NCBI RefSeq assembly: GCF_016026235.1
Contig: NZ_CP065613.1
DNA length: 64,000 bases
Direction: 5' to 3' (one strand)
Source: Escherichia coli
Lineage (GTDB): Bacteria > Pseudomonadota > Gammaproteobacteria > Enterobacterales > Enterobacteriaceae
The position numbers were made by a program, and so were the translations under genes. The notes under the pieces were generated by a model, which saw only the letters and a program-made list of their open reading frames with translations, did not search any database and was not told the origin of the DNA. Shown here piece by piece: positions 42,694-61,626 of the stretch; the stretch's first letter is position 1, and the number at the start of each line of letters is the position of its first letter.

Positions 42694-42700
42694 TTATTGT

Positions 42701-42722
42701 CAGGCTCTGATCACAGAGCCTG
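42701..42722. terminator. hairpin between convergent marB and the glucosidase gene, possible bidirectional terminator
   Basis: CAGGCTCTG-atca-CAGAGCCTG perfect 9-bp stem; no strong T-tract on either side. Confidence 0.4.
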
Positions 42723-42749
42723 ACATCTCCGTAATATCTTCCTGAAGTC

Positions 42750-45890
<3,141 letters not shown>

Positions 45891-45942
45891 TTATCCTTAA
45901 GAGTATAATAATTTCCTCCAGCTATCGCACTGGAGGAAAAAA

Positions 45943-46257
45943 TCAGGCATGGAGTTCTTTTCTTAATGAAATAATTTCCCTGGCTAAATCCAGGCATAAT
46001 ATTGCATTCATCAAATGATCCTGTGCATGAACCAGAATTAAATTAACTTTTATTTTGCCACAGCCTTCATCCTGACTAATTAATGCGGTCTGAATCTTAT
46101 GTGCCTGAAGACAGGCAGATTCAGAACTGGCCATTAGCTGAGTTGCGCCCTGCCAGTCTTTTTGCCCAGCACAACGTATGGCTTCCATCGCGTCAGAACG
46201 TGCCTGCCCCGCGTTGACCAGTAACTCCATAACAAGTTCTTCATCTGCAAACATCAC
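45943..46257 (-). CDS. PTS lactose/cellobiose-family EIIA
   Basis: 104-aa helical ORF typical of cellobiose-type EIIA. Confidence 0.8.
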   Translation of the reverse strand: MMFADEELVMELLVNAGQARSDAMEAIRCAGQKDWQGATQLMASSESACLQAHKIQTALISQDEGCGKIKVNLILVHAQDHLMNAILCLDLAREIISLRKELHA

Positions 46258-46281
46258 AATCTCCTTCCTGGGTAAATGGAA

Positions 46282-47604
46282 TTATCCGTTAGTTGTCATG
46301 TTATTGACTTTGTTGGCGGCAATAACAAAAGGTAAATAGATCATTGTCGCCACACCTAAACATAAAAAACCAACCAGTAAAGCCAGCCAGTTCCCCCCGG
46401 TTCCGAGGAAAGCAATTAAAGGTCCGGGCGTAGTCCAGGGCACGGCATAAGCAACCGGTGGAATAATTTCCATCGAAACAAAGAAGTAACCAATGGCACA
46501 GTTAACAATGGGAACCATAATAAACGGCACCATCATGATGGGGTTAAGTACAATAGGAAGGCCAAACATTATCGGTTCATTGATATTGAAAATACCGGGG
46601 ATAAATGACATTTTTGCCAGATCACGGTATTCCGCACGCTTAGAAGCGATAAAAATAGCCAACAATAACCCCAACGTCATACCTGAACCGCCGCAGTTGG
46701 CGAATGCATCATTAATAGAAGTCCAGGTAATCGGATATGGCGCGCCCCAGGTAGTGCCATGTTGAGCGGCCCAGGAGAGATTCTCCAGATTAGCCTCAGA
46801 AAAAACGGTTTCTCGAATTGCCGATGTGGTATTAGGTCCGTGGATCCCCAGCACCCACAGGAAATTACCCACAGCCCCCAGGATAATTACCGCAAAGATA
46901 TTCGTTCCCATATGTTTGAGCGGCGTCTGGATTAATGTGTAAATAAGATCGTTTAGTCCTGCCGGGGATATCAGTGTCAGGCAATAATTAAGTGCGGAAA
47001 AGAACACCATGACAAAAAATATTGGCAATAAAACTTTACATGAACGCGCTACCGCAGGCGGTACAGCTGCCGGCATCGTTATGGTGATTTTTGGGTTTCG
47101 AGCTAAGCGACAAAATATTTCACTGGTGATCAATGCAACGATAACAGCAACAAACAACCCCTGCGCGCCGAGATATTTGGTCGTCAGGAATGCTTGCCCA
47201 TCTATCATCTGATATGGCGTATAAACAATAAAAAATGCTCCTATTGCCGTTAATCCGCATAAAAGATCATCTTGCTCATAGCTAATCGCCATATTCCTGG
47301 CGACCAGGAAAGCAATCATAATTGACATGATATTTACAGAACCATTCATTACCGGAGTAAAAATAGCTTGTGCTTTTTCAAGGTTGGGGAAAATGCTATT
47401 CAGATGCAGTAATCCGGCAATAAAACCGTCTGGCGATAATATGGCAAAGTTAATTAATATAATTAATGAACTTGCCATGATAATTGGAAACGTAAAAACG
47501 AATCCATCTCTCACCGCTGCAACATGTTTTTGTGAGTTTAACTTGATAGCAACTGGAACAAGAAAACGTTCCATTCCACGTTCGAATGAGGCCATTAATC
47601 CCAT
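46282..47604 (-). CDS. PTS lactose/cellobiose-family EIIC permease
   Basis: 440-aa polytopic membrane ORF. Confidence 0.85.
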   Translation of the reverse strand: MGLMASFERGMERFLVPVAIKLNSQKHVAAVRDGFVFTFPIIMASSLIILINFAILSPDGFIAGLLHLNSIFPNLEKAQAIFTPVMNGSVNIMSIMIAFLVARNMAISYEQDDLLCGLTAIGAFFIVYTPYQMIDGQAFLTTKYLGAQGLFVAVIVALITSEIFCRLARNPKITITMPAAVPPAVARSCKVLLPIFFVMVFFSALNYCLTLISPAGLNDLIYTLIQTPLKHMGTNIFAVIILGAVGNFLWVLGIHGPNTTSAIRETVFSEANLENLSWAAQHGTTWGAPYPITWTSINDAFANCGGSGMTLGLLLAIFIASKRAEYRDLAKMSFIPGIFNINEPIMFGLPIVLNPIMMVPFIMVPIVNCAIGYFFVSMEIIPPVAYAVPWTTPGPLIAFLGTGGNWLALLVGFLCLGVATMIYLPFVIAANKVNNMTTNG

Positions 47605-47717
47605 TTTTTATACCTGTTGTTTTGGATATTTATACATCCCAATAAAGCATGTATGCCATATCCATTTTATGATGTGTGAAAAGTTAGTTCAGGTAATAGT
47701 TTAATAATATTAGATTC

Positions 47718-48029
47718 TTACTCTTGCAGTAGTTTCATCGCAAATTCAAGAACTGCCTGTCCGTTCATGGTGCCGTAGTCTTTCATCTCGATAACGGCTA
47801 CAGGCATTTTCCCCTGTGCAACGGCTTCAATCTCTGGTTTCTGAAAGCGAACTTGCGGGCCAAGTAAAACAACGTCAACTTCGTTATTTTTAATTTTCCC
47901 TTTAGCCTCTGCAATCGCCAATGCGGAAATATTAACTTCAAGTGAAATAGCGTTAGCATGATCAATCATACGTTTAACCAGCATACTGGTTGACATGCCC
48001 GCAGCGCAAACTAACAATATTTTTTTCAT
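47718..48029 (-). CDS. PTS lactose/cellobiose-family EIIB
   Basis: 103-aa ORF with N-terminal phospho-cysteine loop MKKILLVCAAGMSTS. Confidence 0.85.
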   Translation of the reverse strand: MKKILLVCAAGMSTSMLVKRMIDHANAISLEVNISALAIAEAKGKIKNNEVDVVLLGPQVRFQKPEIEAVAQGKMPVAVIEMKDYGTMNGQAVLEFAMKLLQE

Positions 48030-48227
48030 ATTTTCCCTTACTGGTATATAACAGATTACATTGTTTAAATATCATATCCCGCAGTAGCTATACGTCCTGG
48101 TACATTGATCACAGTAATACAGTGATAAAGTTGTTCAACATCAGGGTGATTATTAAACGACTCGGCCATACGATAAACCAATCAGGACTCAACTCCTTGT
48201 TTTCAATGGCTCTTAAAAGGTGCAAAA

Positions 48228-48926
48228 GTGATTTTTCAAAAGATTGCCCGCTTACTTAAATCCGAAATCAATGGCAATTCATGGCATGTTGGTGATTTGT
48301 TGCCGTCAGAAGCGGAACTCGCTGTTCGTTATAATGTTTCGCGTAATACCCTGCGTAAGGCATTATCCTTGCTGGAAGGCGAAGGAATTATTCACAGAAA
48401 GCATGGTTCAGGAACATACATTCAAAAAAAGAATTTTGTTGCACACATTGATCACATGAACAGTTTCAGTGAAATTGCGCATAAAAGCGGCAAAGAGGCA
48501 GGGAGTCAGATTATGAAATTTGAAGTGCAGGATGCTTCACCCACTATTGCGACTGAGCTGAATTTAGTGACTGGTGAGCAGGTTTATTACATAAAGAGAC
48601 TGCGATTCATTGAGGATAATGCAGCACAATTAGAAGAAACGTGGATGTCAGTAGCACGTTTTCCTGATTTAACCGTGTCACATATGCAAAAATCCAAATT
48701 TTCATATATTGAGAATGAATGCGGGATCAAAATCATTGGCACCTTTGAAACTTTCTCCCCTACTTTTCCTACCCCAGAAATCGCCAGTATTTTACGGATC
48801 AGCCCACGGGATCCCATACTTAAAATTCAGACCCAGGCTGTGGACAGTAACTCTATTCCGCTGGATTATTCGTTACTTTACAGCAATATTTTCGAGTTCC
48901 AGGTAAAGTACTTTTTCCCGCGATAA
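48228..48926 (+). CDS. GntR/HutC-family transcriptional regulator (HTH plus UTRA effector domain)
   Basis: 232-aa ORF; N-terminal PSEAELAVRYNVSRNTLRKALSLLEGEGII HTH; divergent from the PTS operon. Confidence 0.8.
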   Translation: MIFQKIARLLKSEINGNSWHVGDLLPSEAELAVRYNVSRNTLRKALSLLEGEGIIHRKHGSGTYIQKKNFVAHIDHMNSFSEIAHKSGKEAGSQIMKFEVQDASPTIATELNLVTGEQVYYIKRLRFIEDNAAQLEETWMSVARFPDLTVSHMQKSKFSYIENECGIKIIGTFETFSPTFPTPEIASILRISPRDPILKIQTQAVDSNSIPLDYSLLYSNIFEFQVKYFFPR

Positions 48927-48970
48927 AAGCAGACGCACAGAGTGCTGACATCACATTCTGTGCGTATGGT

Positions 48971-49870
48971 TTAGCCTCTAACCTTTACCGCTTTACGCCA
49001 CCGCAAGCCAAATACATTGATATACAGCCCGGTCATAATGAGCACCGCACCTAAAAATTGCAGACCCGTTAAGCGTTCATCCAACAATAGTGCCGCACTT
49101 GCCAGTCCGACTACGGGCACCAGTAACGATAACGGTGCAACCCGCCAGGTTTCATAGCGTCCCAGTAACGTCCCCCAGATCCCATAACCAACAATTGTCG
49201 CCACAAACGCCAGATACATCAGAGACAAGATGGTGGTCATATCGATAGTAACCAGACTGTGAATCATGGTTGCGGAACCATCGAGAATCAGCGAGGCAAC
49301 AAAGAAGGGAATGATTGGGATTAAAGCGCTCCAGATTACCAGCGACATCACCGCCGGACGCGTTGAGTGCGACATGATCTTTTTATTGAAGATGTTGCCA
49401 CACGCCCAACTAAATGCTGCCGCCAGGGTCAACATAAAGCCGAGCATCGCCACATGCTGACCGTTCAGACTATCTTCGATTAACACCAGTACGCCAAAAA
49501 TCGCTAAGGCGATCCCCGCCAATTGTTTGCCATGCAATCGCTCCCCGAAAGTAAACGCGCCAAGCATGATAGTAAAAAACGCCTGTGCCTGTAACACCAG
49601 CGAAGCCAGTCCAGCAGGCATACCGAAGTTAATGGCACAAAAAAGAAAAGCAAACTGCGCAAAACTGATGGTTAATCCATACCCCAGCAGCAAATTCAGT
49701 GGTACTTTCGGTCGTGCGACAAAAAAGATAGCCGGAAAAGCGACCAGCATAAAGCGCAAACCGGCCAGCATCAGCGGTGGCATGTTATGAAGCCCCACTT
49801 TGATGACCACAAAATTTAGCCCCCATACGACCACTACCAGTAGCGCCAACACCCCATCTTTTCGCGACAT
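48971..49870 (-). CDS. eamA: cysteine/O-acetylserine exporter (DMT superfamily)
   Basis: 10-TM membrane ORF; likely start MSRKDGVLAL (ORF track extends 7 codons upstream). Confidence 0.85.
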   Translation of the reverse strand: MSRKDGVLALLVVVVWGLNFVVIKVGLHNMPPLMLAGLRFMLVAFPAIFFVARPKVPLNLLLGYGLTISFAQFAFLFCAINFGMPAGLASLVLQAQAFFTIMLGAFTFGERLHGKQLAGIALAIFGVLVLIEDSLNGQHVAMLGFMLTLAAAFSWACGNIFNKKIMSHSTRPAVMSLVIWSALIPIIPFFVASLILDGSATMIHSLVTIDMTTILSLMYLAFVATIVGYGIWGTLLGRYETWRVAPLSLLVPVVGLASAALLLDERLTGLQFLGAVLIMTGLYINVFGLRWRKAVKVRG

Positions 49871-50064
49871 TCTACCGCCTCTGAATTTCATCTTTTGTAA
49901 GCAATCAACTTAGCTGAATTTACTTTTCTTTAACAGTTGATTCGTTAGTCGCCGGTTACGACGGCATTAATGCGCAAATAAGTCGCTATACTTCGGATTT
50001 TTGCCATGCTATTTCTTTACATCTCTAAAACAAAACATAACGAAACGCACTGCCGGACAGACAA

Positions 50065-51252
50065 ATGAACTTATCCCTACGACGCTCTACCAGCGCCCTT
50101 CTTGCCTCGTCGTTGTTATTAACCATCGGACGCGGCGCTACGCTGCCATTTATGACCATTTACTTGAGTCGCCAGTACAGCCTGAGTGTCGATCTAATCG
50201 GTTATGCGATGACAATTGCGCTCACTATTGGCGTCGTTTTTAGCCTCGGTTTTGGTATCCTGGCGGATAAGTTCGACAAGAAACGCTATATGTTACTGGC
50301 AATTACCGCCTTCGCCAGCGGTTTTATTGCCATTCCTTTAGTGAATAACGTAACGCTGGTGGTGCTCTTTTTTGCCCTCATTAACTGCGCCTATTCTGTT
50401 TTTGCTACCGTGCTGAAAGCCTGGTTTGCCGACAATCTTTCGTCCACCAGCAAAACGAAAATCTTCTCAATCAACTACACCATGCTAATCATTGGCTGGA
50501 CCATCGGTCCGCCGCTCGGCACGCTGTTGGTGATGCAGAGCATCAATCTGCCCTTCTGGCTGGCAGCTATCTGTTCCGCGTTTCCCATGCTTTTCATTCA
50601 AATTTGGGTAAAGCGCAGCGAGAAAATCATCGCCACGGAAACAGGCAGTGTCTGGTCGCCGAAAGTTTTATTACAAGATAAAGCACTGTTGTGGTTTACC
50701 TGCTCTGGTTTTCTGGCTTCTTTTGTAAGCGGCGCATTTGCTTCATGCATTTCACAATATGTGATGGTGATTGCTGATGGGGATTTTGCCGAAAAGGTGG
50801 TCGCGGTTGTTCTTCCGGTGAATGCTGCCATGGTGGTTACGTTGCAATATTCCGTGGGCCGCCGACTTAACCCGGCTAACATCCGCGCGCTGATGACAGC
50901 AGGCACCCTCTGTTTCGTCATCGGTCTGGTCGGTTTTATTTTTTCCGGCAACAGCCTGCTATTGTGGGGTATGTCAGCTGCGGTATTTACTGTCGGTGAA
51001 ATCATTTATGCGCCGGGCGAGTATATGTTGATTGACCATATTGCGCCGCCAGGAATGAAAGCCAGCTATTTTTCCGCCCAGTCTTTAGGCTGGCTTGGTG
51101 CCGCGATTAACCCATTAGTGAGTGGCGTAGTGCTAACCAGCCTGCCGCCTTCCTCGCTGTTTGTCATCTTAGCGTTGGTGATCATTGCTGCGTGGGTGCT
51201 GATGTTAAAAGGGATTCGTGCAAGACCGTGGGGGCAGCCCGCGCTTTGTTGA
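50065..51252 (+). CDS. ydeE: MFS transporter
   Basis: 395-aa 12-TM ORF. Confidence 0.85.
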   Translation: MNLSLRRSTSALLASSLLLTIGRGATLPFMTIYLSRQYSLSVDLIGYAMTIALTIGVVFSLGFGILADKFDKKRYMLLAITAFASGFIAIPLVNNVTLVVLFFALINCAYSVFATVLKAWFADNLSSTSKTKIFSINYTMLIIGWTIGPPLGTLLVMQSINLPFWLAAICSAFPMLFIQIWVKRSEKIIATETGSVWSPKVLLQDKALLWFTCSGFLASFVSGAFASCISQYVMVIADGDFAEKVVAVVLPVNAAMVVTLQYSVGRRLNPANIRALMTAGTLCFVIGLVGFIFSGNSLLLWGMSAAVFTVGEIIYAPGEYMLIDHIAPPGMKASYFSAQSLGWLGAAINPLVSGVVLTSLPPSSLFVILALVIIAAWVLMLKGIRARPWGQPALC

Positions 51253-51378
51253 TTTAAGTCGAACACAATAAAAATTTAATTCAGCCTTCGTTTAGGTTAC
51301 CTCTGCTAATATCTTTCTCATTGAGATGAAAATTAAGGTAAGCGAGGAAACACACCACACCATAAACGGAGGCAAATA

Positions 51379-51474
51379 ATGCTGGGTAATATGAATGTTT
51401 TTATGGCCGTACTGGGAATAATTTTATTTTCTGGTTTTCTGGCCGCGTATTTCAGCCACAAATGGGATGACTAA
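51379..51474 (+). CDS. mgtS: 31-aa small membrane protein MgtS
   Basis: ATG preceded by GGAGG; MLGNMNVFMAVLGIILFSGFLAAYFSHKWDD; below ORF-track size cutoff. Confidence 0.75.
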   Translation: MLGNMNVFMAVLGIILFSGFLAAYFSHKWDD

Positions 51475-51501
51475 TGAACGGAGATAATCCCTCACCTAAC
51501 C

Positions 51502-51541
51502 GGCCCCTTGTTACAGTTGTGTACAAGGGGCCTGATTTTTA
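51502..51541 (+). terminator. intrinsic terminator after mgtS
   Basis: GGCCCCTTGT...ACAAGGGGCC stem followed by TGATTTTTAT. Confidence 0.6.
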
Positions 51542-51549
51542 TGACGGCG

Positions 51550-51660
51550 AAAAAAAACCGCCAGTAAACCGGCGGTGAATGCTTGCATGGATAGATTTGT
51601 GTTTTGCTTTTACGCTAACAGGCATTTTCCTGCACTGATAACGGATCGTTGACACAGTAG
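51550..51660 (-). ncRNA. mgrR: candidate PhoP-dependent small RNA (MgrR-like), about 100 nt
   Basis: Minus strand: direct-repeat PhoP-box-like AGTTTA-agctc-CGTTTA at about 51683..51699, then about 100 nt to terminator stem CCGCCGGTTTACTGGCGG plus T8 (51550..51575); no ORF. Confidence 0.5.
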
Positions 51661-51692
51661 CATCAGTTTTCTCAATGAATGTTAAACGGAGC

Positions 51693-52583
51693 TTAAACTC
51701 GGTTAATCACATTTTGTTCGTCAATAAACATGCAGCGATTTCTTCCGGTTTGCTTACCCTCATACATTGCCCGGTCTGCTCTTCCAATGACCACATCCAG
51801 AGGCTCTTCAGGAAATGCGCGACTCACACCTGCTGTCACGGTAATGTTGATATGCCCTTCAGAATGTGTGATGGCATGGTTATCGACTAACTGGCAAATT
51901 CTGACACCTGCACGACATGCTTCTTCATCATTAGCCGCTTTAACAATAATGATAAATTCTTCGCCCCCGTAGCGATAAACCGTTTCGTAATCACGCGTCC
52001 AACTGGCTAAGTAAGTTGCCAGGGTGCGTAATACTACATCGCCGATTAAATGCCCGTAGGTATCATTAACCAATTTAAATCGGTCAATATCCAACAACAT
52101 TAAATAAAGATTCAGAGGCTCAGCGTTGCGTAACTGATGATCAAAGGATTCATCAAGAACCCGACGACCCGGCAATCCCGTCAAAACATCCATATTGCTA
52201 CGGATCGTCAGCAAATAAATTTTGTAATCGGTTAATGCCGCAGTAAAAGAAAGCAACCCCTCCTGAAAGGCGTCGAAATGCGCGTCCTGCCAGTGATTTT
52301 CAACAATAGCCAGCATTAATTCCCGACCACAATTATGCATATGTTGATGGGCAGAATCCATTAGCCGAACGTAAGGTAATTCATCGTTATCGAGTGGCCC
52401 CAGATGATCAATCCACCGACCAAACTGGCACAGTCCATAAGAATGGTTATCCGTTATTTCTGGCTTACTGGCATCTCTCGCGACCACGCTGTGAAACATA
52501 CTCACCAGCCACTGGTAGTGGGCATCGATAGCCTTATTGAGATTTAACAAGATGGCATCAATTTCCGTTGTCTTCTTGATCAT
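51693..52583 (-). CDS. dgcZ: zinc-sensing diguanylate cyclase (CZB plus GGDEF)
   Basis: Starts MIKKTTEIDAILLNLNKAID...; GGEEF motif present. Confidence 0.9.
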   Translation of the reverse strand: MIKKTTEIDAILLNLNKAIDAHYQWLVSMFHSVVARDASKPEITDNHSYGLCQFGRWIDHLGPLDNDELPYVRLMDSAHQHMHNCGRELMLAIVENHWQDAHFDAFQEGLLSFTAALTDYKIYLLTIRSNMDVLTGLPGRRVLDESFDHQLRNAEPLNLYLMLLDIDRFKLVNDTYGHLIGDVVLRTLATYLASWTRDYETVYRYGGEEFIIIVKAANDEEACRAGVRICQLVDNHAITHSEGHINITVTAGVSRAFPEEPLDVVIGRADRAMYEGKQTGRNRCMFIDEQNVINRV

Positions 52584-52837
52584 TGCCACTCCTTTTTCAC
52601 AGTTCCTTGTGCGCGCTATTCTAACGAGAGAAAAGCAAAATTACGTCAATATTTTCATAGAAATCCGAAGTTATGAGTCATCTCTGAGATAACATTGTGA
52701 TTTAAAACAAAATCAGCGGATAAAAAAGTGTTTAATTCTGTAAATCACCTCTGCATTATCGTAAATAAAAGGATGACAAATAGCATAACCCAATACCCTA
52801 ATGGCCCAGTAGTTCAGGCCATCAGGCTAATTTATTT

Positions 52838-53230
52838 TTATTTCTGCAAATGAGTGACCCGAACGACGGCCGGCGCGCTTTTCTTATCCAGACTGCCGCT
52901 AATGTTGATCATCTGGTCCGGCTGAACTTCTCGTCCATCAAAGACGGCCGCAGGAATCACGACATTAATTTCACCGCTCTTATCGCGAAAAACGTAACGG
53001 TCCTCTCCTTTGTGAGAAATCAAATTACCGCGTAGTGAAACCGAAGCGCCATCGTGCATGGTTTTTGCGAAATCAACGGTCATTTTTTTTGCATCATCGG
53101 TTCCGCGATAGCCATCTTCTATTGCATGAGGCGGCGGTGGCGCTGCATCCTGTTTTAAACCGCCCTGGTCATCTGCCAACGCATAAGGCATGACAAGAAA
53201 ACTTGCTAATACAATGGTCTGAAATTTCAT
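52838..53230 (-). CDS. ydeI: periplasmic OB-fold (BOF-family) stress protein
   Basis: 130-aa ORF with signal peptide. Confidence 0.85.
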
Positions 53231-53505
53231 ACTAACTCCTTAATTGCGTTTGGTTTGACTTATTAAGTCTGGTTGCTATTTTTATAATTGCCAAATAAGA
53301 ATACTGCCAATTGTTATAAGGCATTTAAAATCAGCCAACTAGCTGTCAAATATTCAGAGAATTTAACTCACTAAAGTTAAGAAGATTGAAGAGTCTTAAA
53401 CATATTTTCAGAATAATCGGATTTATATGTTTGAAAATTATTATATTGGACGAGCATACAGAAAAAGCAAATCACCTTTACATATAATAGCGTGGACAAA
53501 AAACA

Positions 53506-54024
53506 GTGAACATTAATAAAGATAAAATTGTACAACTCGCAGATACCGACACTATTGAAAACCTGACATCCGCATTGAGTCAAAGACTTATCGCGGATCA
53601 ATTACGCTTAACTACCGCCGAATCATGCACCGGCGGTAAGTTGGCTAGCGCACTGTGTGCAGCTGAAGATACCCCCAAATTTTACGGTGCAGGCTTTGTT
53701 ACTTTCACCGATCAGGCAAAGATGAAAATCCTCAGCGTAAGCCAGCAATCTCTTGAACGATATTCTGCGGTGAGTGAGAAAGTGGCAGCAGAAATGGCAA
53801 CCGGTGCCATAGAGCGTGCGGATGCTGATGTCAGTATTGCCATTACCGGCTACGGCGGACCGGAGGGCGGTGAAGATGGTACGCCAGCGGGTACCGTCTG
53901 GTTCGCGTGGCATATTAAAGGCCAGAACTACACTGCGGTTATGCATTTTGCTGGCGACTGCGAAACGGTATTAGCTATAGCGGTGAGGTTTGCCCTCGCC
54001 CAGCTGCTGCAATTACTGCTATAA
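53506..54024 (+). CDS. ydeJ: CinA C-terminal-domain family protein (possible NMN deamidase)
   Basis: 172-aa ORF. Confidence 0.8.
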   Translation: MNINKDKIVQLADTDTIENLTSALSQRLIADQLRLTTAESCTGGKLASALCAAEDTPKFYGAGFVTFTDQAKMKILSVSQQSLERYSAVSEKVAAEMATGAIERADADVSIAITGYGGPEGGEDGTPAGTVWFAWHIKGQNYTAVMHFAGDCETVLAIAVRFALAQLLQLLL

Positions 54025-54068
54025 CCAGGCTGGCCTGGCGATATCTCCAGTCCAGCCATTGGTGGTGT

Positions 54069-56114
54069 TTATATGTTCAAGCCACGATGTTGCAGCATCG
54101 GCATAATCTGAGGTGCCTTACCGCGCCATTGTCGATACAGGCGTTCCAGATCTTCGCTGTTACCTCTGGAAAGGATCGCCTCGCGAAAACGCAGCCCATT
54201 TTCACGCGTTAATCCGCCCTGCTCAACAAACCACTGATAACCATCATCGGCCAACATTTGCGTCCACAGATAAGCGTAATAACCTGCGGCATATCCGCCA
54301 CCAAAAATATGGGCGAAATAACTGCTGCGATAGCGTGGCGGTATAGCAGGAAGATCCATATTTTCCGCCACCAGCGCCCGCAATTCGAAATCATCGACAT
54401 CCTGCATTGCTTCGTTTTCTTCCAGGCAATGCCAGCGCATATCGAGAAGTGCGGCGCTAAGCAGTTCGCTCATCTCATACCCTTTGTTGAACAGGCTGGC
54501 ATTACGCATTTTCTGTTGCAGTTCGTCAGGCATTGCTGCCCCGCTCTGATAATGCCGGGCGTAGCGAGCGAATACCTGCGGATGCGTTGCCCAGTGTTCG
54601 TTGATTTGCGACGGAAATTCGACAAAATCATGCGGCGTGTTGGTGCCGGAAAGCGTGGCATAACGCTGGCGGGCAAAAAGGCCGTGCAGCGTATGACCAA
54701 ATTCATGGAATAAGGTTATGACATCATCCCAGAGTAACAACGCAGGCTCACCGGCAGCGGGTTTCTGATAATTGCAGACGTTATAAATTACCGGATGTGT
54801 TTCATTAAGCGTTGATTGCTCAACAAAATTGCCCATCCATGCACCGCCGCTTTTTGAATCACGGGCGAAGAAATCACCGTAAAATAACGCCAGCCCCACG
54901 CCATTATGATCAAAAATTTCCCACACCCGAACGTCAGGATGGTAGACAGGAATATCAAAACGTTCGACAAACTTAATACCGAAGAGCTGATTCGCGGTCC
55001 AGAATACACCTTCATTCAACACCGTGTTTAATTCAAAATATGGCTTGAGCTGCGCCTCATCAAGATCAAATTTCTCCCGCCGTACCTGTTCCGCATAAAA
55101 TGCCCAGTCCCACGGCTGCGCGCTAAACCCGCCCTGCTGCTTATCGATAACCGCCTGTATGGAGGCTAATTCATCGCTCGCACGTTGACGCGCCGCTGGA
55201 ACAATTTCCCGCATAAAGTTGAGTGCTGCTTCTGGCGTTTTTGCCATCTGATCGGCGATTTTCCATGCGGCATAATGAGGAAAACCAAGCAGTTTCGCCT
55301 GCTGTGCGCGAATCTCTACCAGACGTTGAATGATAGCGCGGGTATCATTGCCATCATTTTTTTCCGCTCGCGTCCAGCCCGCAATAAACAGTTTTTCACG
55401 CGTCGCACGATCGCGCATTTCGGCAAGCGCCGGTTGTTGGGTGGTATTCAGCAGCGGAATCAGCCATTTGTTATCCAGACCTTTCTCGCGAGCCGCCTCT
55501 GCCGCCAGCGCAATCTCTTGCTCACTCATTCCTGCCAGCTGCGCGATATCGTTCACAACCAGACCGCCGGATTTATTTGCTGCAAGTAACCGCTGGTTAA
55601 ACTGGCTGGTCAGGGTCGCAGCTTCTGTATTCAGTACTTTTAATTTTGCTTTATCAGCTTGCGCAAGTTTGGCTCCGGCAAGGACAAAACGTTGATGAAT
55701 AACCTCCACCAGGCGGATGGATTCACTATCAAGCCCCAGGGATTCACGGCGCTGCCAGACAGCATCTACCCGCGCGAATAATTCACCGTTCAGATAGATA
55801 TCATTAGCCAGTTCCGCCAGTTCAGCGGAAAACTGTTCATCAAGACGCTGTAATTCATCATTGGTATGCGCCGCAGTCATCGCAAAAAAGACGCTGGTAA
55901 CGCGGGTAAGTAATTCTCCGCTTTGTTCCAGTGCCAGAATAGTATTGTTGAAATCAGGCGTTTGCGGGTTAAGCGCGATGGCAGCAATTTCTGCCCGCTT
56001 TTGCTGCATTCCCTCATCGAATGCCGAGCGATAGTGATGATTGGCAATTTGATCAAAATGAGGAGCCAGATACGGCAGTGTGCTTTGCACAAGGAAAGGA
56101 TTCATTGTTGTCAT
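54069..56114 (-). CDS. dcp: dipeptidyl carboxypeptidase II (M3 metallopeptidase)
   Basis: HEFGH zinc motif present; likely start MTTMNPFLVQ (ORF track extends 22 codons upstream). Confidence 0.9.
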   Translation of the reverse strand: MTTMNPFLVQSTLPYLAPHFDQIANHHYRSAFDEGMQQKRAEIAAIALNPQTPDFNNTILALEQSGELLTRVTSVFFAMTAAHTNDELQRLDEQFSAELAELANDIYLNGELFARVDAVWQRRESLGLDSESIRLVEVIHQRFVLAGAKLAQADKAKLKVLNTEAATLTSQFNQRLLAANKSGGLVVNDIAQLAGMSEQEIALAAEAAREKGLDNKWLIPLLNTTQQPALAEMRDRATREKLFIAGWTRAEKNDGNDTRAIIQRLVEIRAQQAKLLGFPHYAAWKIADQMAKTPEAALNFMREIVPAARQRASDELASIQAVIDKQQGGFSAQPWDWAFYAEQVRREKFDLDEAQLKPYFELNTVLNEGVFWTANQLFGIKFVERFDIPVYHPDVRVWEIFDHNGVGLALFYGDFFARDSKSGGAWMGNFVEQSTLNETHPVIYNVCNYQKPAAGEPALLLWDDVITLFHEFGHTLHGLFARQRYATLSGTNTPHDFVEFPSQINEHWATHPQVFARYARHYQSGAAMPDELQQKMRNASLFNKGYEMSELLSAALLDMRWHCLEENEAMQDVDDFELRALVAENMDLPAIPPRYRSSYFAHIFGGGYAAGYYAYLWTQMLADDGYQWFVEQGGLTRENGLRFREAILSRGNSEDLERLYRQWRGKAPQIMPMLQHRGLNI

Positions 56115-56250
56115 TTTCTTCTCCTGAACGCGAGGTGTTCCATAGCGTAGGCTTACTGATAACGGAGTGCAATCTTGCAAACCAGTATTACCCGCTCTTA
56201 AGCATCACGTGCTATGTTATTGACACACAAAAGCGTTGAGGAACAGTGAG

Positions 56251-56997
56251 ATGATCGTTTTAGTAACTGGAGCAACGGCAGGTTTTGGTGAATGCATTAC
56301 TCGTCGTTTTATTCAACAAGGGCATAAAGTTATCGCCACTGGCCGTCGCCAGGAGCGGTTGCAGGAGTTAAAAGACGAACTGGGAGATAATCTGTATATC
56401 GCCCAACTGGACGTTCGCAACCGCGCAGCTATTGAAGAGATGCTGGCATCGCTCCCTGCCGAGTGGTGCAATATTGATATCCTGGTAAATAATGCCGGCC
56501 TGGCGTTGGGCATGGAGCCTGCGCATAAAGCCAGCGTTGAAGACTGGGAAACGATGATTGATACCAACAACAAAGGCCTGGTATATATGACGCGCGCCGT
56601 CTTACCGGGTATGGTTGAACGTAATCATGGTCATATTATTAACATTGGCTCAACGGCAGGTAGCTGGCCGTATGCCGGTGGTAACGTTTACGGTGCGACG
56701 AAAGCGTTTGTTCGTCAGTTTAGCCTGAATCTGCGTACGGACCTGCATGGTACGGCGGTGCGCGTCACCGACATCGAACCGGGTCTGGTGGGTGGCACCG
56801 AGTTTTCCAATGTCCGCTTTAAAGGCGATGACGGTAAAGCGGAAAAAACCTATCAAAATACCGTTGCATTGACGCCAGAAGATGTCAGCGAAGCCGTTTG
56901 GTGGGTGTCAACGCTGCCTGCTCACGTCAATATCAATACCCTGGAAATGATGCCGGTTACCCAAAGCTATGCCGGACTGAATGTCCACCGTCAGTAA
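56251..56997 (+). CDS. ydfG: NADP-dependent short-chain dehydrogenase
   Basis: MIVLVTGATAGFG Rossmann motif at start; ORF track extends 5 codons upstream. Confidence 0.9.
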   Translation: MIVLVTGATAGFGECITRRFIQQGHKVIATGRRQERLQELKDELGDNLYIAQLDVRNRAAIEEMLASLPAEWCNIDILVNNAGLALGMEPAHKASVEDWETMIDTNNKGLVYMTRAVLPGMVERNHGHIINIGSTAGSWPYAGGNVYGATKAFVRQFSLNLRTDLHGTAVRVTDIEPGLVGGTEFSNVRFKGDDGKAEKTYQNTVALTPEDVSEAVWWVSTLPAHVNINTLEMMPVTQSYAGLNVHRQ

Positions 56998-57085
56998 TTT
57001 TTATACCCGGCGTAACTGCCGGGTTATTGCTTGTCACAAAAAAGTGGTAGACTCATGCAGTTAACTCACTCACAAGCAAGAACGA

Positions 57086-57772
57086 ATGACCGTCGAAACG
57101 CAACTTAATCCCACACAGCCTGTCAATCAGCAAATTTATCGTATCCTTCGTCGCGACATTGTCCATTGCCTGATTGCTCCAGGCACACCGTTGTCGGAAA
57201 AAGAAGTTTCTGTTCGTTTCAATGTGTCACGCCAGCCGGTTCGTGAAGCCTTTATTAAACTGGCGGAAAACGGCCTGATTCAAATTCGTCCACAGCGTGG
57301 CAGCTACGTCAACAAAATTTCCATGGCCCAGGTGCGCAACGGCAGTTTTATCCGTCAGGCCATTGAGTGCGCGGTGGCGCGTCGGGCGGCGAGCATGATT
57401 ACCGAAAGCCAGTGCTACCAACTGGAACAAAATCTTCACCAGCAACGCATTGCCATTGAGCGCAAGCAACTGGATGATTTTTTTGAACTTGATGACAACT
57501 TCCATCAACTCCTGACGCAGATTGCCGACTGTCAACTGGCGTGGGATACCATTGAGAACCTGAAAGCGACCGTTGATCGCGTGCGCTATATGAGTTTCGA
57601 CCATGTTTCTCCACCAGAAATGCTGTTACGCCAGCATCTTGATATTTTCTCTGCCCTGCAAAAACGTGATGGCGATGCGGTAGAACGTGCAATGACGCAA
57701 CATTTGCAGGAAATCAGCGAATCCGTGCGCCAGATCCGCCAGGAAAACAGCGACTGGTTTAGCGAAGAGTAA
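57086..57772 (+). CDS. rspR: GntR/FadR-family transcriptional regulator
   Basis: 228-aa ORF with N-terminal HTH. Confidence 0.85.
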
Positions 57773-57949
57773 TTCATTTACTCTCATCCCATCCGGGATG
57801 AGAGGCTTTTCCCCCCGCCTTACGGCTCATGCATGCATCAAAAAAGATGTGAGCTTGATCAAAAACAAAAAATATTTCACTCGACAGGAGTATTTATATT
57901 GCGCCCGTTACGTGGGCTTCGACTGTAAATCAGAAAGGAGAAAACACCT

Positions 57950-58153
57950 ATGACGACCTACGATCGTAACCGTAACGCAATCACCACTGGCAGCCGTGTT
58001 ATGGTTAGCGGCACCGGTCACACTGGCAAGATCCTGTCGATTGATACTGAAGGTCTGACCGCTGAGCAAATCCGCCGCGGAAAAACCGTAGTTGTTGAAG
58101 GTTGTGAAGAGAAACTGGCACCTCTGGACCTGATTCGTCTCGGCATGAACTAA
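57950..58153 (+). CDS. ydfZ: small DUF1471-like protein
   Basis: 67-aa ORF with good RBS (AGGAG). Confidence 0.8.
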
Positions 58154-58188
58154 GTGTGTGAATGCCGCCGATGGCGGCATTGCTTTTT

Positions 58189-59649
58189 TTACTTCACGGA
58201 ATATTTCGCCACGGTCGCTTTCGCGCCATGCGCTAATAAAGACAAGTACGCTTCCGTCACTTTTGCAGTAAACAAGCTATTGTCTGGCAAATCATCACCA
58301 AAGATTGCCTTAATCGCCAGCAATGACTGGACGCGCGCTTTCCCTTCGGCACTACTTTGTACAGCCTTCTGAATAACAGGTAACAGTGGGTCACTGATTT
58401 CTATCGGATTTCCCTGTTCATCAACACCACCGACATAACGCATCCAACCCGCGACGCCCAGCGCCAGCAGATCGAACTTGCTGTCATGCGCCAGATGCCA
58501 GCGAACAGAATCCAACATCCGCTGTGGCAATTTCTGGCTACCATCCATCGCAATCTGCCAGGTTCGATGACGTAACGCCGGGTTGCTATAGCGTTCAATT
58601 AATCGGTTAGCGTAATCTTGCAAATCAACGCCCTGCACTTTCAGCGTCGGCGCTTGTTCCTGCAACATCAAGCCATACGCCGCATAACGATAATGTTCAT
58701 CTTCCATGCAGTCATTAATGTGCTGATATCCAGCAAGATAACCCAAATACGCCAGGAATGAATGACTGCCGTTGAGCATGCGCAACTTCATCTCTTCATA
58801 AGGCAGCACATCACTAACCAGTTCGGCTCCCGCTTTTTCCCATTCTGGACGTCCGGCAACAAAGTTATCTTCTATTACCCACTGGCGGAAAGGTTCACAG
58901 GCAACGCCCGCAGGATCGCCCACACCGGTAAGTTGTTCGATTTTCGCCAGCGTATCCTCTGTCACTGCGGGCACAATACGGTCCACCATTGTTGATGGGA
59001 AAGTCACGTTATCTTCGATCCATTGTGCCAGTTTTTCATCAACGGCTTGCGCGTAGGAAGTGACAACGTCACGCATAACATGACCGTTTTCTGGCATGTT
59101 GTCACATGACATGACGGTAAATGCGGGAAGTCCTGCCGCTTTACGGCGAGCCAGCGCCTCAACAATCACCCCTGTTGCTGTTTTCGGCTGGTGGGGATTT
59201 TGCACGTCGGCAACGACCATCGGGTGATCGAGCATTAACTGTCCGGTCGCCGGAGAGTGGAAATACCCTTTTTCGGTGATTGTCAGAGAGACAATCGCGA
59301 TTTGTGGTTCACACATCGCAGCCAACACGGTTTCTAAGCCATCCATCTGTACGTGCAAGGCTTTTTTAACGACGCCAACGACGCGAGCCGTCCACGCATC
59401 GGCCGACATTTCCGCAACGGTATAAAGATTATCTTGCTGTTGTAAATCGGCAATTTGCTGTTCGCCACCGATTAAGTTGACCTCATAATATCCCCAGTCA
59501 CTGAAATGTTCTGTAGCAAGAATATCGGCATACACGCCCTGATGCGCACGGTGAAATGCACCAAAGCCTAAATGAACAATTCTTGGGGCCAGGTTATTAC
59601 GATCATAAACAGGGAGTGTCGCTTTTGCTGATAACAAATTATTTCCCAT
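58189..59649 (-). CDS. ydfI: mannitol-dehydrogenase-family oxidoreductase
   Basis: 486-aa ORF. Confidence 0.85.
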
Positions 59650-59738
59650 AACAATTCCTTAAATTTAAATATGGCAAGCTACATGTTTTGTTATATGAAT
59701 AAAAAATCCCCTCTCCGGTAAGAGAAGGGATTAAGGAT

Positions 59739-61022
59739 TTAAAGACTTCTGGAAGGTTGCGCAGCTCTTACAACACGCGGTTGATCTTCCGCAGCGTCTT
59801 CCAGCGCACTTAAATCACGGTCTTTCACTTCTGGCATTTTCAGCGCAGAGATTAAACCAATCACTGAATATGCCATGATCATAATGGCGATCGGATACCA
59901 GGATTCCGTCATGGTGCAGAAAATACCCGCCAGGATAGGACCAAAACCGGAAGCGATAAGACCACCAATTTCTTTAGAAATAGCCATCCGGGTAAAGCGG
60001 TTTTTACAGCCGAACATTTCTGCCATGGTAATGTTTTCCAGAGCAAATAATCCCAGCACCGCACAGTTATGAATCACAATCAGTGCAACCATAATGGTGC
60101 TCGGGGCATAGCTTTTATCTACGATGATAGAAAGCATTGGCCATGCCAGCACAATCGCGGAGGTATTCATAATAATATACGGGATCCGGCGACCAATTTT
60201 ATCGGATAACCAACCAAGGAACGGAATGGTCATAAAGCCGAGAATCGAACTAATCATCAATGCATCTGTTGGAATTGCTTTGTTAAACAATAACGTCTGC
60301 ACTAAATAGCCTGCAAGGAAAGTCTGAATTAACCCGGAGTTACCCGCCTGACCAAAACGCAGCCCTGTTGCCAGCCAGAAGGATTTGCTCTGGAACATGC
60401 TACCAGCAGGTGCAGGTTTTGCTGTCGGTTGGTTGCTGTCATTAACCTTCTCAAAGACCGGGCTTTCTTTCAGATTCATACGTAACCAGATAGCAAAGAC
60501 CATCACGACAACGCTCGCCAGGAACGGTATACGCCATCCCCACGCCAGCAGTTCCTCTTTACTGAGAATGAAGAACATAAAGGCCCAGATTGCCGTTGCG
60601 CTCAAGGTTCCGCAGTTAGTTCCCATAGCTACAAATGAGGAGATAATTCCGCGCTTACCTTTTGGCGCATATTCCGCCAGCATCGTACCGGCACCGGAAA
60701 TTTCCGCACCTGCACCCAATCCCTGAATAATACGCAGCGTCACCAGCAAAATGGGTGCAAAAACACCAATCTGTGCATAGGTCGGTAACACACCAATTAA
60801 GGTGGTACAGATCCCCATCATGGTGATGGTAATAAAGAGCACTTTTTTACGCCCTATTCTGTCGCCCATTTTGCCGAAAATAAATGCTCCGACAATACGC
60901 GCCACATAACCTGCACCGTAGGTTCCCATTGCCAAAATTAACGCCATTGCCGTTGATGATTCAGGAAAAAATATTTCATGAAACACTAACGCTGCGCCGA
61001 GCGAATATAACTGGAAATCCAT
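59739..61022 (-). CDS. ydfJ: MFS metabolite:H+ symporter, apparently N-terminally truncated at the prophage junction
   Basis: 427-aa ORF; MFS loop motif GDRIGRKKV at residues about 52..60, i.e. only one TM helix precedes it. Confidence 0.7.
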   Translation of the reverse strand: MDFQLYSLGAALVFHEIFFPESSTAMALILAMGTYGAGYVARIVGAFIFGKMGDRIGRKKVLFITITMMGICTTLIGVLPTYAQIGVFAPILLVTLRIIQGLGAGAEISGAGTMLAEYAPKGKRGIISSFVAMGTNCGTLSATAIWAFMFFILSKEELLAWGWRIPFLASVVVMVFAIWLRMNLKESPVFEKVNDSNQPTAKPAPAGSMFQSKSFWLATGLRFGQAGNSGLIQTFLAGYLVQTLLFNKAIPTDALMISSILGFMTIPFLGWLSDKIGRRIPYIIMNTSAIVLAWPMLSIIVDKSYAPSTIMVALIVIHNCAVLGLFALENITMAEMFGCKNRFTRMAISKEIGGLIASGFGPILAGIFCTMTESWYPIAIMIMAYSVIGLISALKMPEVKDRDLSALEDAAEDQPRVVRAAQPSRSL

Positions 61023-61626
61023 AATTCACAGGTGTTTTTTCCCATCCTGTGGTTTCCTTGGCGTTTTCTAGGTTTTTTCAGATAGTTGCATTTTTTAAAA
61101 AGCATCCTAAGTTCGATCTCAGTGTCTATCTGGGGCCTATTTCTGTCCCATATATGCCCCAAAAAAAACTCCCCAACAGATAAGTAGTTTTTTCATGGAT
61201 TTATGCGTAAAATCAAGAACGGCTGGAAATCATTCAATACTCACACTATCGAAAAATTTACCAGCCAACCGCAGCACGTTCTTGCATAAGGCGTGTCTGC
61301 GGTTTTTCAACTATTCAGATACATCACTCCCATCACATTCATTCCTCCGCATCAAAGGCATATAGGCTATATCACCTTGATATTTTTCTTTTTCAGATAA
61401 AAACTGTTATCTATGTATACTTTTAAACCCAATCCGTGTAGAGTCTCTGCATAAGATAGTTTACAGTTGCCGCTTCAGCTTGCGCCATAAACCGCCTGAT
61501 TTTTGCTGCCACCTGTTAGCATTCCTGTATACCTGAAACGACAATGTTTATCTACGAACTTTAAGAACACCCAAGATAAAAATTGTCAACTATATCATAT
61601 ATAACACATTACTAATTCGAGGCTAT

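What the first reader, a model, noticed from the sequence alone, without database searches (positions are those of the whole stretch)
59739..61030. ydfJ transporter appears truncated at its N-terminus where prophage-like DNA begins
The MFS signature loop (GDRIGRKKV) occurs after only one predicted TM helix, where two are expected, and the sequence upstream of the start (61023 onward) is AT-rich prophage-type DNA leading to ydfK, pinQ and tail fibre genes. This suggests the prophage integrated into the 5' end of the transporter gene, so 61022..61030 would be a prophage attachment junction.
Basis: partly seen in the sequence, partly recalled or inferred. Interest (0 to 1): 0.3.

Follow-up and report, generated by a model that had tools for sequence, protein, structure and literature searches.

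The report
Prophage-split ydfJ transporter gene (attL)
A lambda-like phage (Qin/mEp460 type) has integrated inside the E. coli sugar-acid transporter gene ydfJ, cutting off its first 28 codons; this junction is real but is already annotated and published, so it is ordinary.

Summary

- **Truncation.** The ORF at 59739..61022 (-) is YdfJ residues 29-455. It is identical in protein sequence to the matching part of the 455-aa YdfJ of prophage-free E. coli, where ydfJ lies in rspA-rspB-ydfJ-ydfI.
- **Junction.** I compared free-phage attP (mEp460, HannyBb), an empty attB, the window, and attR of K-12 and RM10809-3. They share an 11-bp core, GAAATCCATAA, at window 61014..61024. The window has the B-O-P' arrangement, so it is attL.
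- **Phage arm.** From 61025 on, the DNA is 99.9% identical over about 3 kb to phage mEp460 (ynfT, ydfK, pinQ, tfaQ, tail fibre).
- **What was lost.** The insertion removes the promoter-proximal 28 codons, about half of TM1. An in-frame TGA sits two codons upstream of Met29. The phage arm supplies no replacement 5' end.
- **Frequency.** About 37% of 5,426 complete E. coli genomes have the empty site and about 37% have this junction type. Others carry different prophages at the same core.
- **Prior knowledge.** NCBI's PGAP annotation pipeline marks such copies 'missing N-terminus'. PMC6379469 describes Qin integration into ydfJ with loss of 28 codons.

The only correction is that the core is 61014..61024, not 61022..61030. 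The other prophage end lies outside the window.

The parts
59739..61022 (-). ydfJ' : 3' part of the MHS-family MFS transporter gene ydfJ (codons 29-455 plus stop). The ORF opens at the internal Met29.
   Evidence: ORF list. Pfam and NCBIfam hits. Identical to residues 29-455 of intact YdfJ. PGAP marks the same CDS in K-12, RM10809-3, O157 and 8 other genomes as 'incomplete; missing N-terminus'.
61014..61024 (.). att core GAAATCCATAA, the common core of attL. On the gene strand it reads TT ATG GAT TTC, i.e. codons F28(part)-M29-D30-F31 of ydfJ. Strand exchange happened somewhere inside it.
   Evidence: Four-way comparison of attP, attB, attL and attR. Alignment to intact loci. It occurs only once on the + strand of the window.
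61025..64000 (.). P' arm of a Qin/mEp460-type lambdoid prophage. It runs off the window's 3' end.
   Evidence: Window 61011..64000 is 99.9% identical over 2990 bp to free phage mEp460_ev081 (L007 4602..7591), and 98.6% to HannyBb as far as 63158. In both phages this DNA lies directly after int-attP. GC is 0.36 in 61025..62358.
61627..61740 (+). ynfT, a small YnaM/YnfT-family ORF (prophage gene).
   Evidence: Sequence read directly. PGAP annotation at the same offset in RM10809-3 and K-12.
61809..62042 (+). ydfK (prophage gene, annotated as cold-shock protein YdfK).
   Evidence: PGAP annotation at the same offset. It lies within the ORF at 61776..62042. No Pfam hit.
62359..62949 (+). pinQ, a serine DNA invertase.
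   Evidence: Resolvase N-terminal domain (E 2.5e-36) plus HTH_7. Annotation.
63047..63622 (-). tfaQ, a tail fibre assembly protein.
   Evidence: Caudo_TAP, E 3.6e-43. Annotation.
63622..64000 (-). 3' end of the prophage tail fibre gene. It continues beyond the window.
   Evidence: Phage_fiber repeat hit. In RM10809-3 the same position is the end of a 3399-nt tail fibre gene.
58189..59649 (-). ydfI (mannitol-dehydrogenase family), the host gene downstream of ydfJ. The prophage separates it, together with ydfJ', from rspA-rspB.
   Evidence: Mannitol_dh and Mannitol_dh_C domains. Gene order rspA-rspB-ydfJ-ydfI in empty-site genomes.

Best explanation
Window 61014..61024 is the attL junction of a Qin/mEp460-type lambdoid prophage. 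Its tyrosine integrase recombined phage attP with a bacterial attB that lies inside ydfJ, at codons 28-31. Integration split the gene. The 3' part (codons 29-455) stays next to ydfI and is what the window shows. The first 28 codons, the ribosome-binding site and the upstream rspA-rspB genes now lie at the far end of the prophage (attR), outside the window. The phage arm brings no substitute 5' end: an in-frame TGA lies two codons upstream of Met29. ydfJ' is therefore a 5'-truncated gene remnant that lacks about half of TM1, and it is most likely non-functional. Shown here: the truncation, the core, the B-O-P' arrangement, and the phage identity of the arm. Inferred: loss of expression and function, and the position of the TM1 boundary.
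For: - Intact 455-aa ydfJ sits next to rspB in prophage-free genomes. The window protein equals its residues 29-455 with no mismatch.
- Alignment of the window to intact loci loses identity after 61024.
- The 11-bp core GAAATCCATAA is shared by attP (phages mEp460, HannyBb), attB, attL (window, K-12, RM10809-3, MSHS472) and attR (K-12, RM10809-3), with the flanks swapped exactly as site-specific recombination predicts.
- Window 61011..64000 is 99.9% identical to free phage mEp460 directly downstream of its int-attP.
- In the closest complete genome (RM10809-3, 99.6% over 8 kb) the prophage is about 48.6 kb. It ends with xis, an intact 1281-nt integrase and attR, followed by a 36-codon ydfJ 5' remnant (MTIEKHERSTKDLVKAAVSGWLGTALEF-MDF-KSHAC*) and rspB.
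- Family profiles show the missing N-terminal positions.
- An in-frame stop lies two codons upstream of Met29. The only purine-rich stretch (GGATGGGA) lies about 17-24 nt upstream of the ATG. The simple scan finds no minus-strand sigma-70-like site in 61023..61800.
- Alleles private to split copies are 6 nonsynonymous: 7 synonymous. Alleles private to intact copies are 3 (2 nonsynonymous + 1 stop): 19 synonymous. Fisher p = 0.05; this is a weak hint of relaxed constraint.
- Published: Qin integrates site-specifically at the 5' end of ydfJ, with promoter loss and loss of 28 codons (PMC6379469). ydfJ is listed as the Qin insertion site in strains W, K-12, B and Crooks (PMC3032704).
Against: - The other end of this particular prophage is not in the window, so attR, int and xis of this very genome were not seen. 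They are inferred from the closest relatives.
- All 13 sampled split copies still keep an open 1284-nt frame, and the truncated protein still passes the TIGR00883 cutoff. Sequence alone therefore does not prove loss of function.
- ydfJ RNA was reported as differentially expressed after DicC induction in K-12 (bioRxiv 10.1101/2024.09.21.614188), so some transcription of the remnant occurs.
- The promoter scan is a crude consensus match.
Confidence: 0.96

Rival explanations
1. The 427-aa form is the native, complete gene, and the 455-aa form in other strains is an annotation artefact or a lineage-specific 5' extension. On this reading the prophage sits in the intergenic space between ydfJ and rspB.
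For: Older descriptions treat it this way. The SE11 genome paper lists its prophage as integrated 'between ydfJ and rspB' with no duplication reported (PMC2608844). The ORF has a proper ATG and passes the TIGR00883 cutoff.
Against: The 28 extra residues align to the N-terminal positions of the ShiA, ProP and TIGR00883 profiles: profile starts are 12, 22 and 1 for the intact protein, against 37, 40 and 7 for the truncated one. The att core lies inside that reading frame, and host identity stops at codon 28. The 84-nt 5' end is found in frame at attR next to rspB. PGAP flags the window-type copy as missing its N-terminus in every split genome sampled.
Confidence: 0.01
2. The truncated gene is still a working transporter. 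Translation starts at Met29 from transcripts that originate in the prophage arm, giving an N-terminally shortened but functional MFS protein.
For: An open frame is kept in 13 of 13 sampled split copies, with few amino-acid changes. The TIGR00883 score stays above its cutoff. ydfJ appears among genes differentially expressed after DicC induction in K-12.
Against: About half of TM1 is missing, including the conserved G-x-x-x-E-(W/F) part of the MHS TM1 motif (…GTALEF|MDF…; sequence, profile alignments). There is no well-placed Shine-Dalgarno sequence, and the scan finds no minus-strand promoter-like site within about 800 bp. The N:S ratio among alleles private to split copies is 6:7, against 3:19 for intact copies. 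Shared polymorphism (39 of 74 alleles occur in both classes) means the open frames can be explained by recent or repeated integrations rather than by selection.
Confidence: 0.04
3. The truncation was caused by a deletion or an IS-mediated rearrangement at the edge of a prophage that had integrated elsewhere. It is not integration into ydfJ itself.
For: Cryptic Qin in K-12 is heavily rearranged: intQ is truncated by IS2 and the head and tail genes are deleted.
Against: The break falls exactly at the core shared with attP of free phages. The missing 84 nt are retained intact at attR, and nothing is deleted between the two halves. The same break point is seen with different prophages (O157 type, MSHS472 type).
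Confidence: 0.01

Closest known systems
Qin (Kim) cryptic prophage of E. coli K-12 integrated in ydfJ
   Same: Same host gene, same break after codon 28, and the same attL sequence (K-12 locus L004 21413 is identical to the window around the core). Same first prophage genes: ynfT-ydfK-pinQ-tfaQ. Published as Qin integration at the 5' end of ydfJ with loss of 28 codons (PMC6379469).
   Different: The window is not K-12: it is 99.0% identical over 48981..63818 and carries a 6.3-kb PTS/beta-glucosidase island that K-12 lacks. Its match to K-12 stops at 63818, where the K-12 tail-fibre gene is truncated. The window continues like a complete tail fibre gene, as in RM10809-3 and mEp460. The prophage here may therefore be more complete than the 20-kb K-12 remnant. 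This cannot be settled from the window.
Temperate lambdoid phages mEp460, HannyBb, Tritos, PhiR42_1 (free-phage genomes)
   Same: int-xis is 99.1-99.8% identical to the integrase end of the RM10809-3 prophage. attP of mEp460 and HannyBb carries the same 11-bp core. The P' arm of mEp460 is 99.9% identical to window 61011..64000.
   Different: These are unintegrated genomes with the P-O-P' arrangement. The window shows the recombinant B-O-P' junction.
Other intragenic lambdoid integrations in E. coli (e14 in icd, Rac in ttcA)
   Same: A tyrosine-integrase prophage uses an attB inside a protein-coding gene (summarised in PMC6379469).
   Different: According to that review, e14 duplicates the icd 3' end and Rac supplies an altered TtcA N-terminus, so those host genes stay whole. 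Here the P' arm supplies no replacement 5' end (stop two codons upstream of Met29), so ydfJ is left truncated.

Membership tests
Site-specific (tyrosine-integrase) prophage attachment junction, attL of the Qin/mEp460 type | A common core sequence shared by attP, attB, attL and attR, with flanks exchanged (B-O-P' and P-O-B'). | tested here: met
   The 11-bp GAAATCCATAA is found in all four site types, with the arms swapped as predicted.
Site-specific (tyrosine-integrase) prophage attachment junction, attL of the Qin/mEp460 type | DNA on the phage side is colinear with the free phage genome starting at attP. | tested here: met
   Window 61011..64000 against mEp460 L007 4602..7591: 99.9% over 2990 bp.
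Site-specific (tyrosine-integrase) prophage attachment junction, attL of the Qin/mEp460 type | An uninterrupted attB exists in genomes that lack the element. | tested here: met
   2009 of 5426 complete E. coli genomes cover at least 80% of a 271-bp query spanning attB. Examples: D8 and E41-1.
Site-specific (tyrosine-integrase) prophage attachment junction, attL of the Qin/mEp460 type | An integrase (and excisionase) gene and the matching attR at the other end of the same element. | not testable with these tools
   The other end lies beyond window position 64000, and no genome in the collection is identical to the window (best 99.6%). In the closest genomes the feature is present: RM10809-3 has xis, an intact int and attR, and K-12 has a truncated intQ and attR.
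MHS (metabolite:H+ symporter, TIGR00883) family of MFS transporters | Whole-protein score above the curated cutoff of the family model. | tested here: met
   TIGR00883: 453.5 bits against a cutoff of 443.45 for the 427-aa protein, and 462.9 bits for the intact 455-aa protein.
MHS (metabolite:H+ symporter, TIGR00883) family of MFS transporters | A complete N-terminal half with TM1 and TM2 before the motif-A loop (G-x-x-x-D-R-x-G-R-K). | tested here: not met
   The motif is present (GDRIGRKKV, residues 53-61). However, the protein enters the ShiA and ProP profiles at positions 37 and 40, against 12 and 22 for the intact protein, and TIGR00883 at position 7, against 1. 28 residues are missing, including the first half of TM1. 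It is a fragment of a family member, not a complete member.

The most novel reading that the evidence does not exclude
In strains where the mEp460-type prophage still has working int and xis, as in RM10809-3 and possibly the window's source, excision would rejoin ydfJ precisely. It would also reconnect ydfJ-ydfI to rspA-rspB. The prophage could then act as a reversible genetic switch ('active lysogeny') on this putative sugar-acid catabolic operon, rather than as a dead-end insertion. The intermixing of split and intact alleles on shared polymorphisms (39 of 74 variant alleles occur in both classes) is compatible with frequent gain and loss. It is equally explained by ordinary lysogenisation, curing and recombination.
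Probability: 0.05. Interest if true: 0.4.

Novelty: already known. Interest (0 to 1): 0.06.

Why it matters
It matters little beyond correct annotation. The 427-aa 'YdfJ' of K-12-like strains should be read as a prophage-truncated remnant, not as a native transporter, and the intact gene is 455 aa. The site is a busy integration hotspot. About 63% of complete E. coli genomes lack the uninterrupted attB stretch. The site is used by Qin/mEp460-type phages, by an O157 prophage carrying DUF1076 genes, and probably by some Stx2a-converting phages, whose records end in a related int/attP arm. This is useful for prophage typing and for interpreting the rspAB-ydfJI cluster.

Tried and rejected
- **Structure of intact YdfJ.** A single-sequence AlphaFold2 model, meant to fix the TM1/TM2 boundaries, had mean pLDDT 41.6 and pTM 0.24. 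It is unusable, and TM boundaries are left as inference.
- **Solved structures.** A PDB sequence search with intact YdfJ found no hit at E <= 1e-10.
- **Biochemistry of the rspAB-ydfJI cluster.** I looked for the paper I recall (L-gulonate catabolism, Wichelecki et al. 2014). It was not found by text search or by the ids I tried. Any statement about L-gulonate is my recollection only and is not used as evidence.
- **pinQ crossover sites.** A search for Gin/Hin/Pin-type sites (AAACCNNGGTTT, one mismatch allowed) near pinQ found nothing in 61000..64000 and only chance-level hits elsewhere. Only weak inverted repeats were found.
- **Promoter for ydfJ'.** The scan found no minus-strand promoter-like site. 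The scan is crude, so this is weak negative evidence.
- **Large protein-database searches.** I chose not to run them. The E. coli genome collection and the family profiles already answer the length question.

Full report
**1. What is in the sequence**

The ORF at window 59739..61022 on the minus strand encodes 427 aa. It is an MFS transporter: MFS_1 E 2.6e-37, Sugar_tr E 6e-25. It belongs to the metabolite:H+ symporter (MHS) subfamily, scoring 453.5 bits on TIGR00883 against a cutoff of 443.45. It enters the full-length equivalog profiles late, at ShiA position 37 and ProP position 40. That is what a missing N-terminus looks like.

Upstream of the ATG, read on the gene strand, the frame gives ...K K H L * I M: an in-frame TGA two codons before the start. 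GC content is 0.466 in ydfJ and 0.358 in 61025..62358.

Beyond the junction lie:
- ynfT, 61627..61740
- ydfK, 61809..62042
- pinQ, 62359..62949 (Resolvase + HTH_7)
- tfaQ, 63047..63622 (Caudo_TAP)
- the 3' end of a tail-fibre gene running off the window

**2. Comparison with genomes that lack the element**

A megablast of 59600..62400 against 5,426 complete E. coli genomes hit 5,425 of them. Only 1,984 covered at least 80% of the query. The other matches end at query positions corresponding to about window 61028, 61161, 61288 or 61302.

Genomes whose match stops at about 61028 (D8, E41-1) have no prophage there. Their gene order is rspA-rspB-ydfJ-ydfI, and ydfJ is 1368 nt, 455 aa. The window's 427 aa equal residues 29-455 of the D8 protein with zero mismatches.

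The intact protein enters the ShiA, ProP and TIGR00883 profiles at positions 12, 22 and 1. The additional 28 residues are therefore genuine family sequence, not an annotation extension.

A 271-bp query spanning the intact junction is covered at 80% or more in 2,009 of 5,426 genomes. In the rest it splits at the same few bases.

**3. The junction at base resolution**

Window and intact loci are identical up to 61024 and unrelated afterwards, apart from a short TTCA that aligns with a 1-nt gap.

I fetched the far end of the prophage in K-12 MG1655. I did the same for the closest complete genome, O22:H8 RM10809-3, which is 99.6% identical to the window over 8 kb. I then searched the phage collection with the RM10809-3 xis-int-att region. 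Four free temperate phages (mEp460_ev081, HannyBb, Tritos, PhiR42_1) carry the same xis-int at 99.1-99.8% identity. In mEp460 and HannyBb the integrase gene is followed by homologues of ydfK, pinQ, tfa and the tail fibre gene.

Lining up all sites on GAAATCCATAA:

| Site | Source | Sequence |
|---|---|---|
| attP | mEp460, HannyBb | gactctt GAAATCCATAA ttcacaggtg |
| attB | D8, E41-1 | ataactg GAAATCCATAA attcaagcgc |
| attL | window, K-12, RM10809-3, MSHS472 | ataactg GAAATCCATAA ttcacag(g/a)tg |
| attR | K-12, RM10809-3 | gactctt GAAATCCATAA attcaagcgc |

This is the classical POP' x BOB' -> BOP' + POB' pattern. The core occupies window 61014..61024. On the gene strand it reads TT-ATG-GAT-TTC, which is F28(part)-M29-D30-F31. 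The start codon of the truncated ORF is therefore part of the core itself.

Window 61011..64000 is 99.9% identical over 2,990 bp to mEp460 from its attP onward.

At attR, the 5' piece of ydfJ reads MTIEKHERSTKDLVKAAVSGWLGTALEF-MDF-KSHAC*, a 36-codon remnant just downstream of rspB.

**4. Mechanism and consequence**

Shown:
- A Qin/mEp460-type lambdoid phage integrated by site-specific recombination inside ydfJ.
- The gene is split between codons 28 and 31.
- The phage arm provides no replacement 5' end.

Inferred:
- *Membrane insertion.* The remnant lacks the segment A16-F28. By alignment with the MHS TM1 motif (ProP ...LGNAMEWFDF...; my knowledge of the ProP sequence, consistent with the profile offsets), this is the first half of TM1. 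Proper membrane insertion is therefore unlikely.
- *Transcription.* The remnant is cut off from rspA-rspB by the whole prophage. That is about 20 kb in K-12 and about 48.6 kb in RM10809-3, measured between the att cores. I take rspA-rspB to be the likely upstream transcription unit. The simple scan finds no minus-strand sigma-70-like site in the first ~800 bp of the phage arm.
- *Translation.* The nearest purine-rich stretch is about 17-24 nt from the ATG.

As a small test of decay I compared 13 split and 8 intact copies.
- All 13 split copies keep an open 1,284-nt frame.
- Of 74 variant alleles, 39 occur in both classes. Split and intact states are therefore scattered over the same allele genealogy. 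That fits repeated integration, curing or recombination rather than one ancient event.
- Alleles private to split copies are 6 nonsynonymous : 7 synonymous.
- Alleles private to intact copies are 3 : 19, counting one nonsense allele as nonsynonymous.
- Fisher p = 0.05.

This is a weak hint of relaxed constraint in split copies, on a small sample. It is no support for a selected, functional truncated protein.

**5. What is known**

PGAP annotates the window-type CDS as 'MHS family MFS transporter YdfJ; incomplete; missing N-terminus' in every split genome I opened.

[quoted passage not shown] They report Qin-site prophages in 48% of 638 genomes. The E. coli W genome paper lists ydfJ as the Qin insertion site in strains W, K-12, B and Crooks (PMC3032704).

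The finding is therefore already known. The four-way att table with free-phage attP is a tidy confirmation rather than a discovery. I did not find the 11-bp core spelled out in the papers I could read, but I did not search for it exhaustively.

**6. Verdict**

- Observation: confirmed.
- Interpretation: supported, with the junction moved to 61014..61024.
- Novelty: already known.
- Interest: low, 0.06.

The only non-trivial reading left open is a reversible excision switch on the rspAB-ydfJI cluster in strains whose prophage is still active. I rate it at about 5%.

Noticed in passing
window 61011..64000; L007 4602..7591: The prophage arm is 99.9% identical to the free temperate phage mEp460_ev081. 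It also continues past the point (63818) where the tail-fibre gene of cryptic Qin in K-12 is truncated. The prophage in the window's source may therefore be a complete, possibly inducible mEp460-type phage rather than the 20-kb K-12 remnant.
   Followed up: partly
window 42695..48981: A ~6.3-kb segment between marB and eamA is absent from K-12 MG1655 and present in RM10809-3. There it is annotated as 6-phospho-beta-glucosidase, carbohydrate porin, PTS IIA/IIC/IIB and a GntR regulator.
   Followed up: no
window 4981..5686: A 706-bp stretch is 99.9% identical to the IS2 fragment that truncates intQ in K-12, so there is an IS2 copy or fragment in the window's left part. Window 33880..34379 also breaks colinearity with K-12 next to dgcF.
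   Followed up: no
L009 (O157:H7 C1-057) 4422..7884; phage hits H57-H67: A different prophage occupies the same ydfJ site in O157:H7. It carries a DinI-like gene and three DUF1076 genes and has different tail fibre genes. Several Stx2a-converting phage records end in DNA 91-93% identical to the int/attP arm. The ydfJ core is therefore a shared hotspot for several lambdoid lineages.
   Followed up: partly
L003 (MSHS 472) 5422..7156, corresponding to window 61302 onward: Some genomes share only the first ~280 bp of the P' arm with the window and then diverge. They lack ynfT, ydfK and pinQ and run straight to tfaQ and a truncated tail fibre gene. This is a deletion or mosaic variant of the prophage end.
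   Followed up: no
window 59705..59732 (-): A strong terminator-like hairpin (12 pairs, then a T run) lies between the ydfJ stop codon and ydfI. ydfI may therefore not simply be co-transcribed with ydfJ.
   Followed up: no
L018 (strain cS108a) ydfJ, codon 403: One prophage-free genome carries a nonsense mutation (W403*) in an otherwise intact 455-codon ydfJ. The gene is thus also lost by point mutation in some strains.
   Followed up: no
L012 (strain 102651) 1..50: In this split genome the neighbouring ydfI is annotated as incomplete, missing its C-terminus. This is further erosion of the cluster in at least one lysogen.
   Followed up: no
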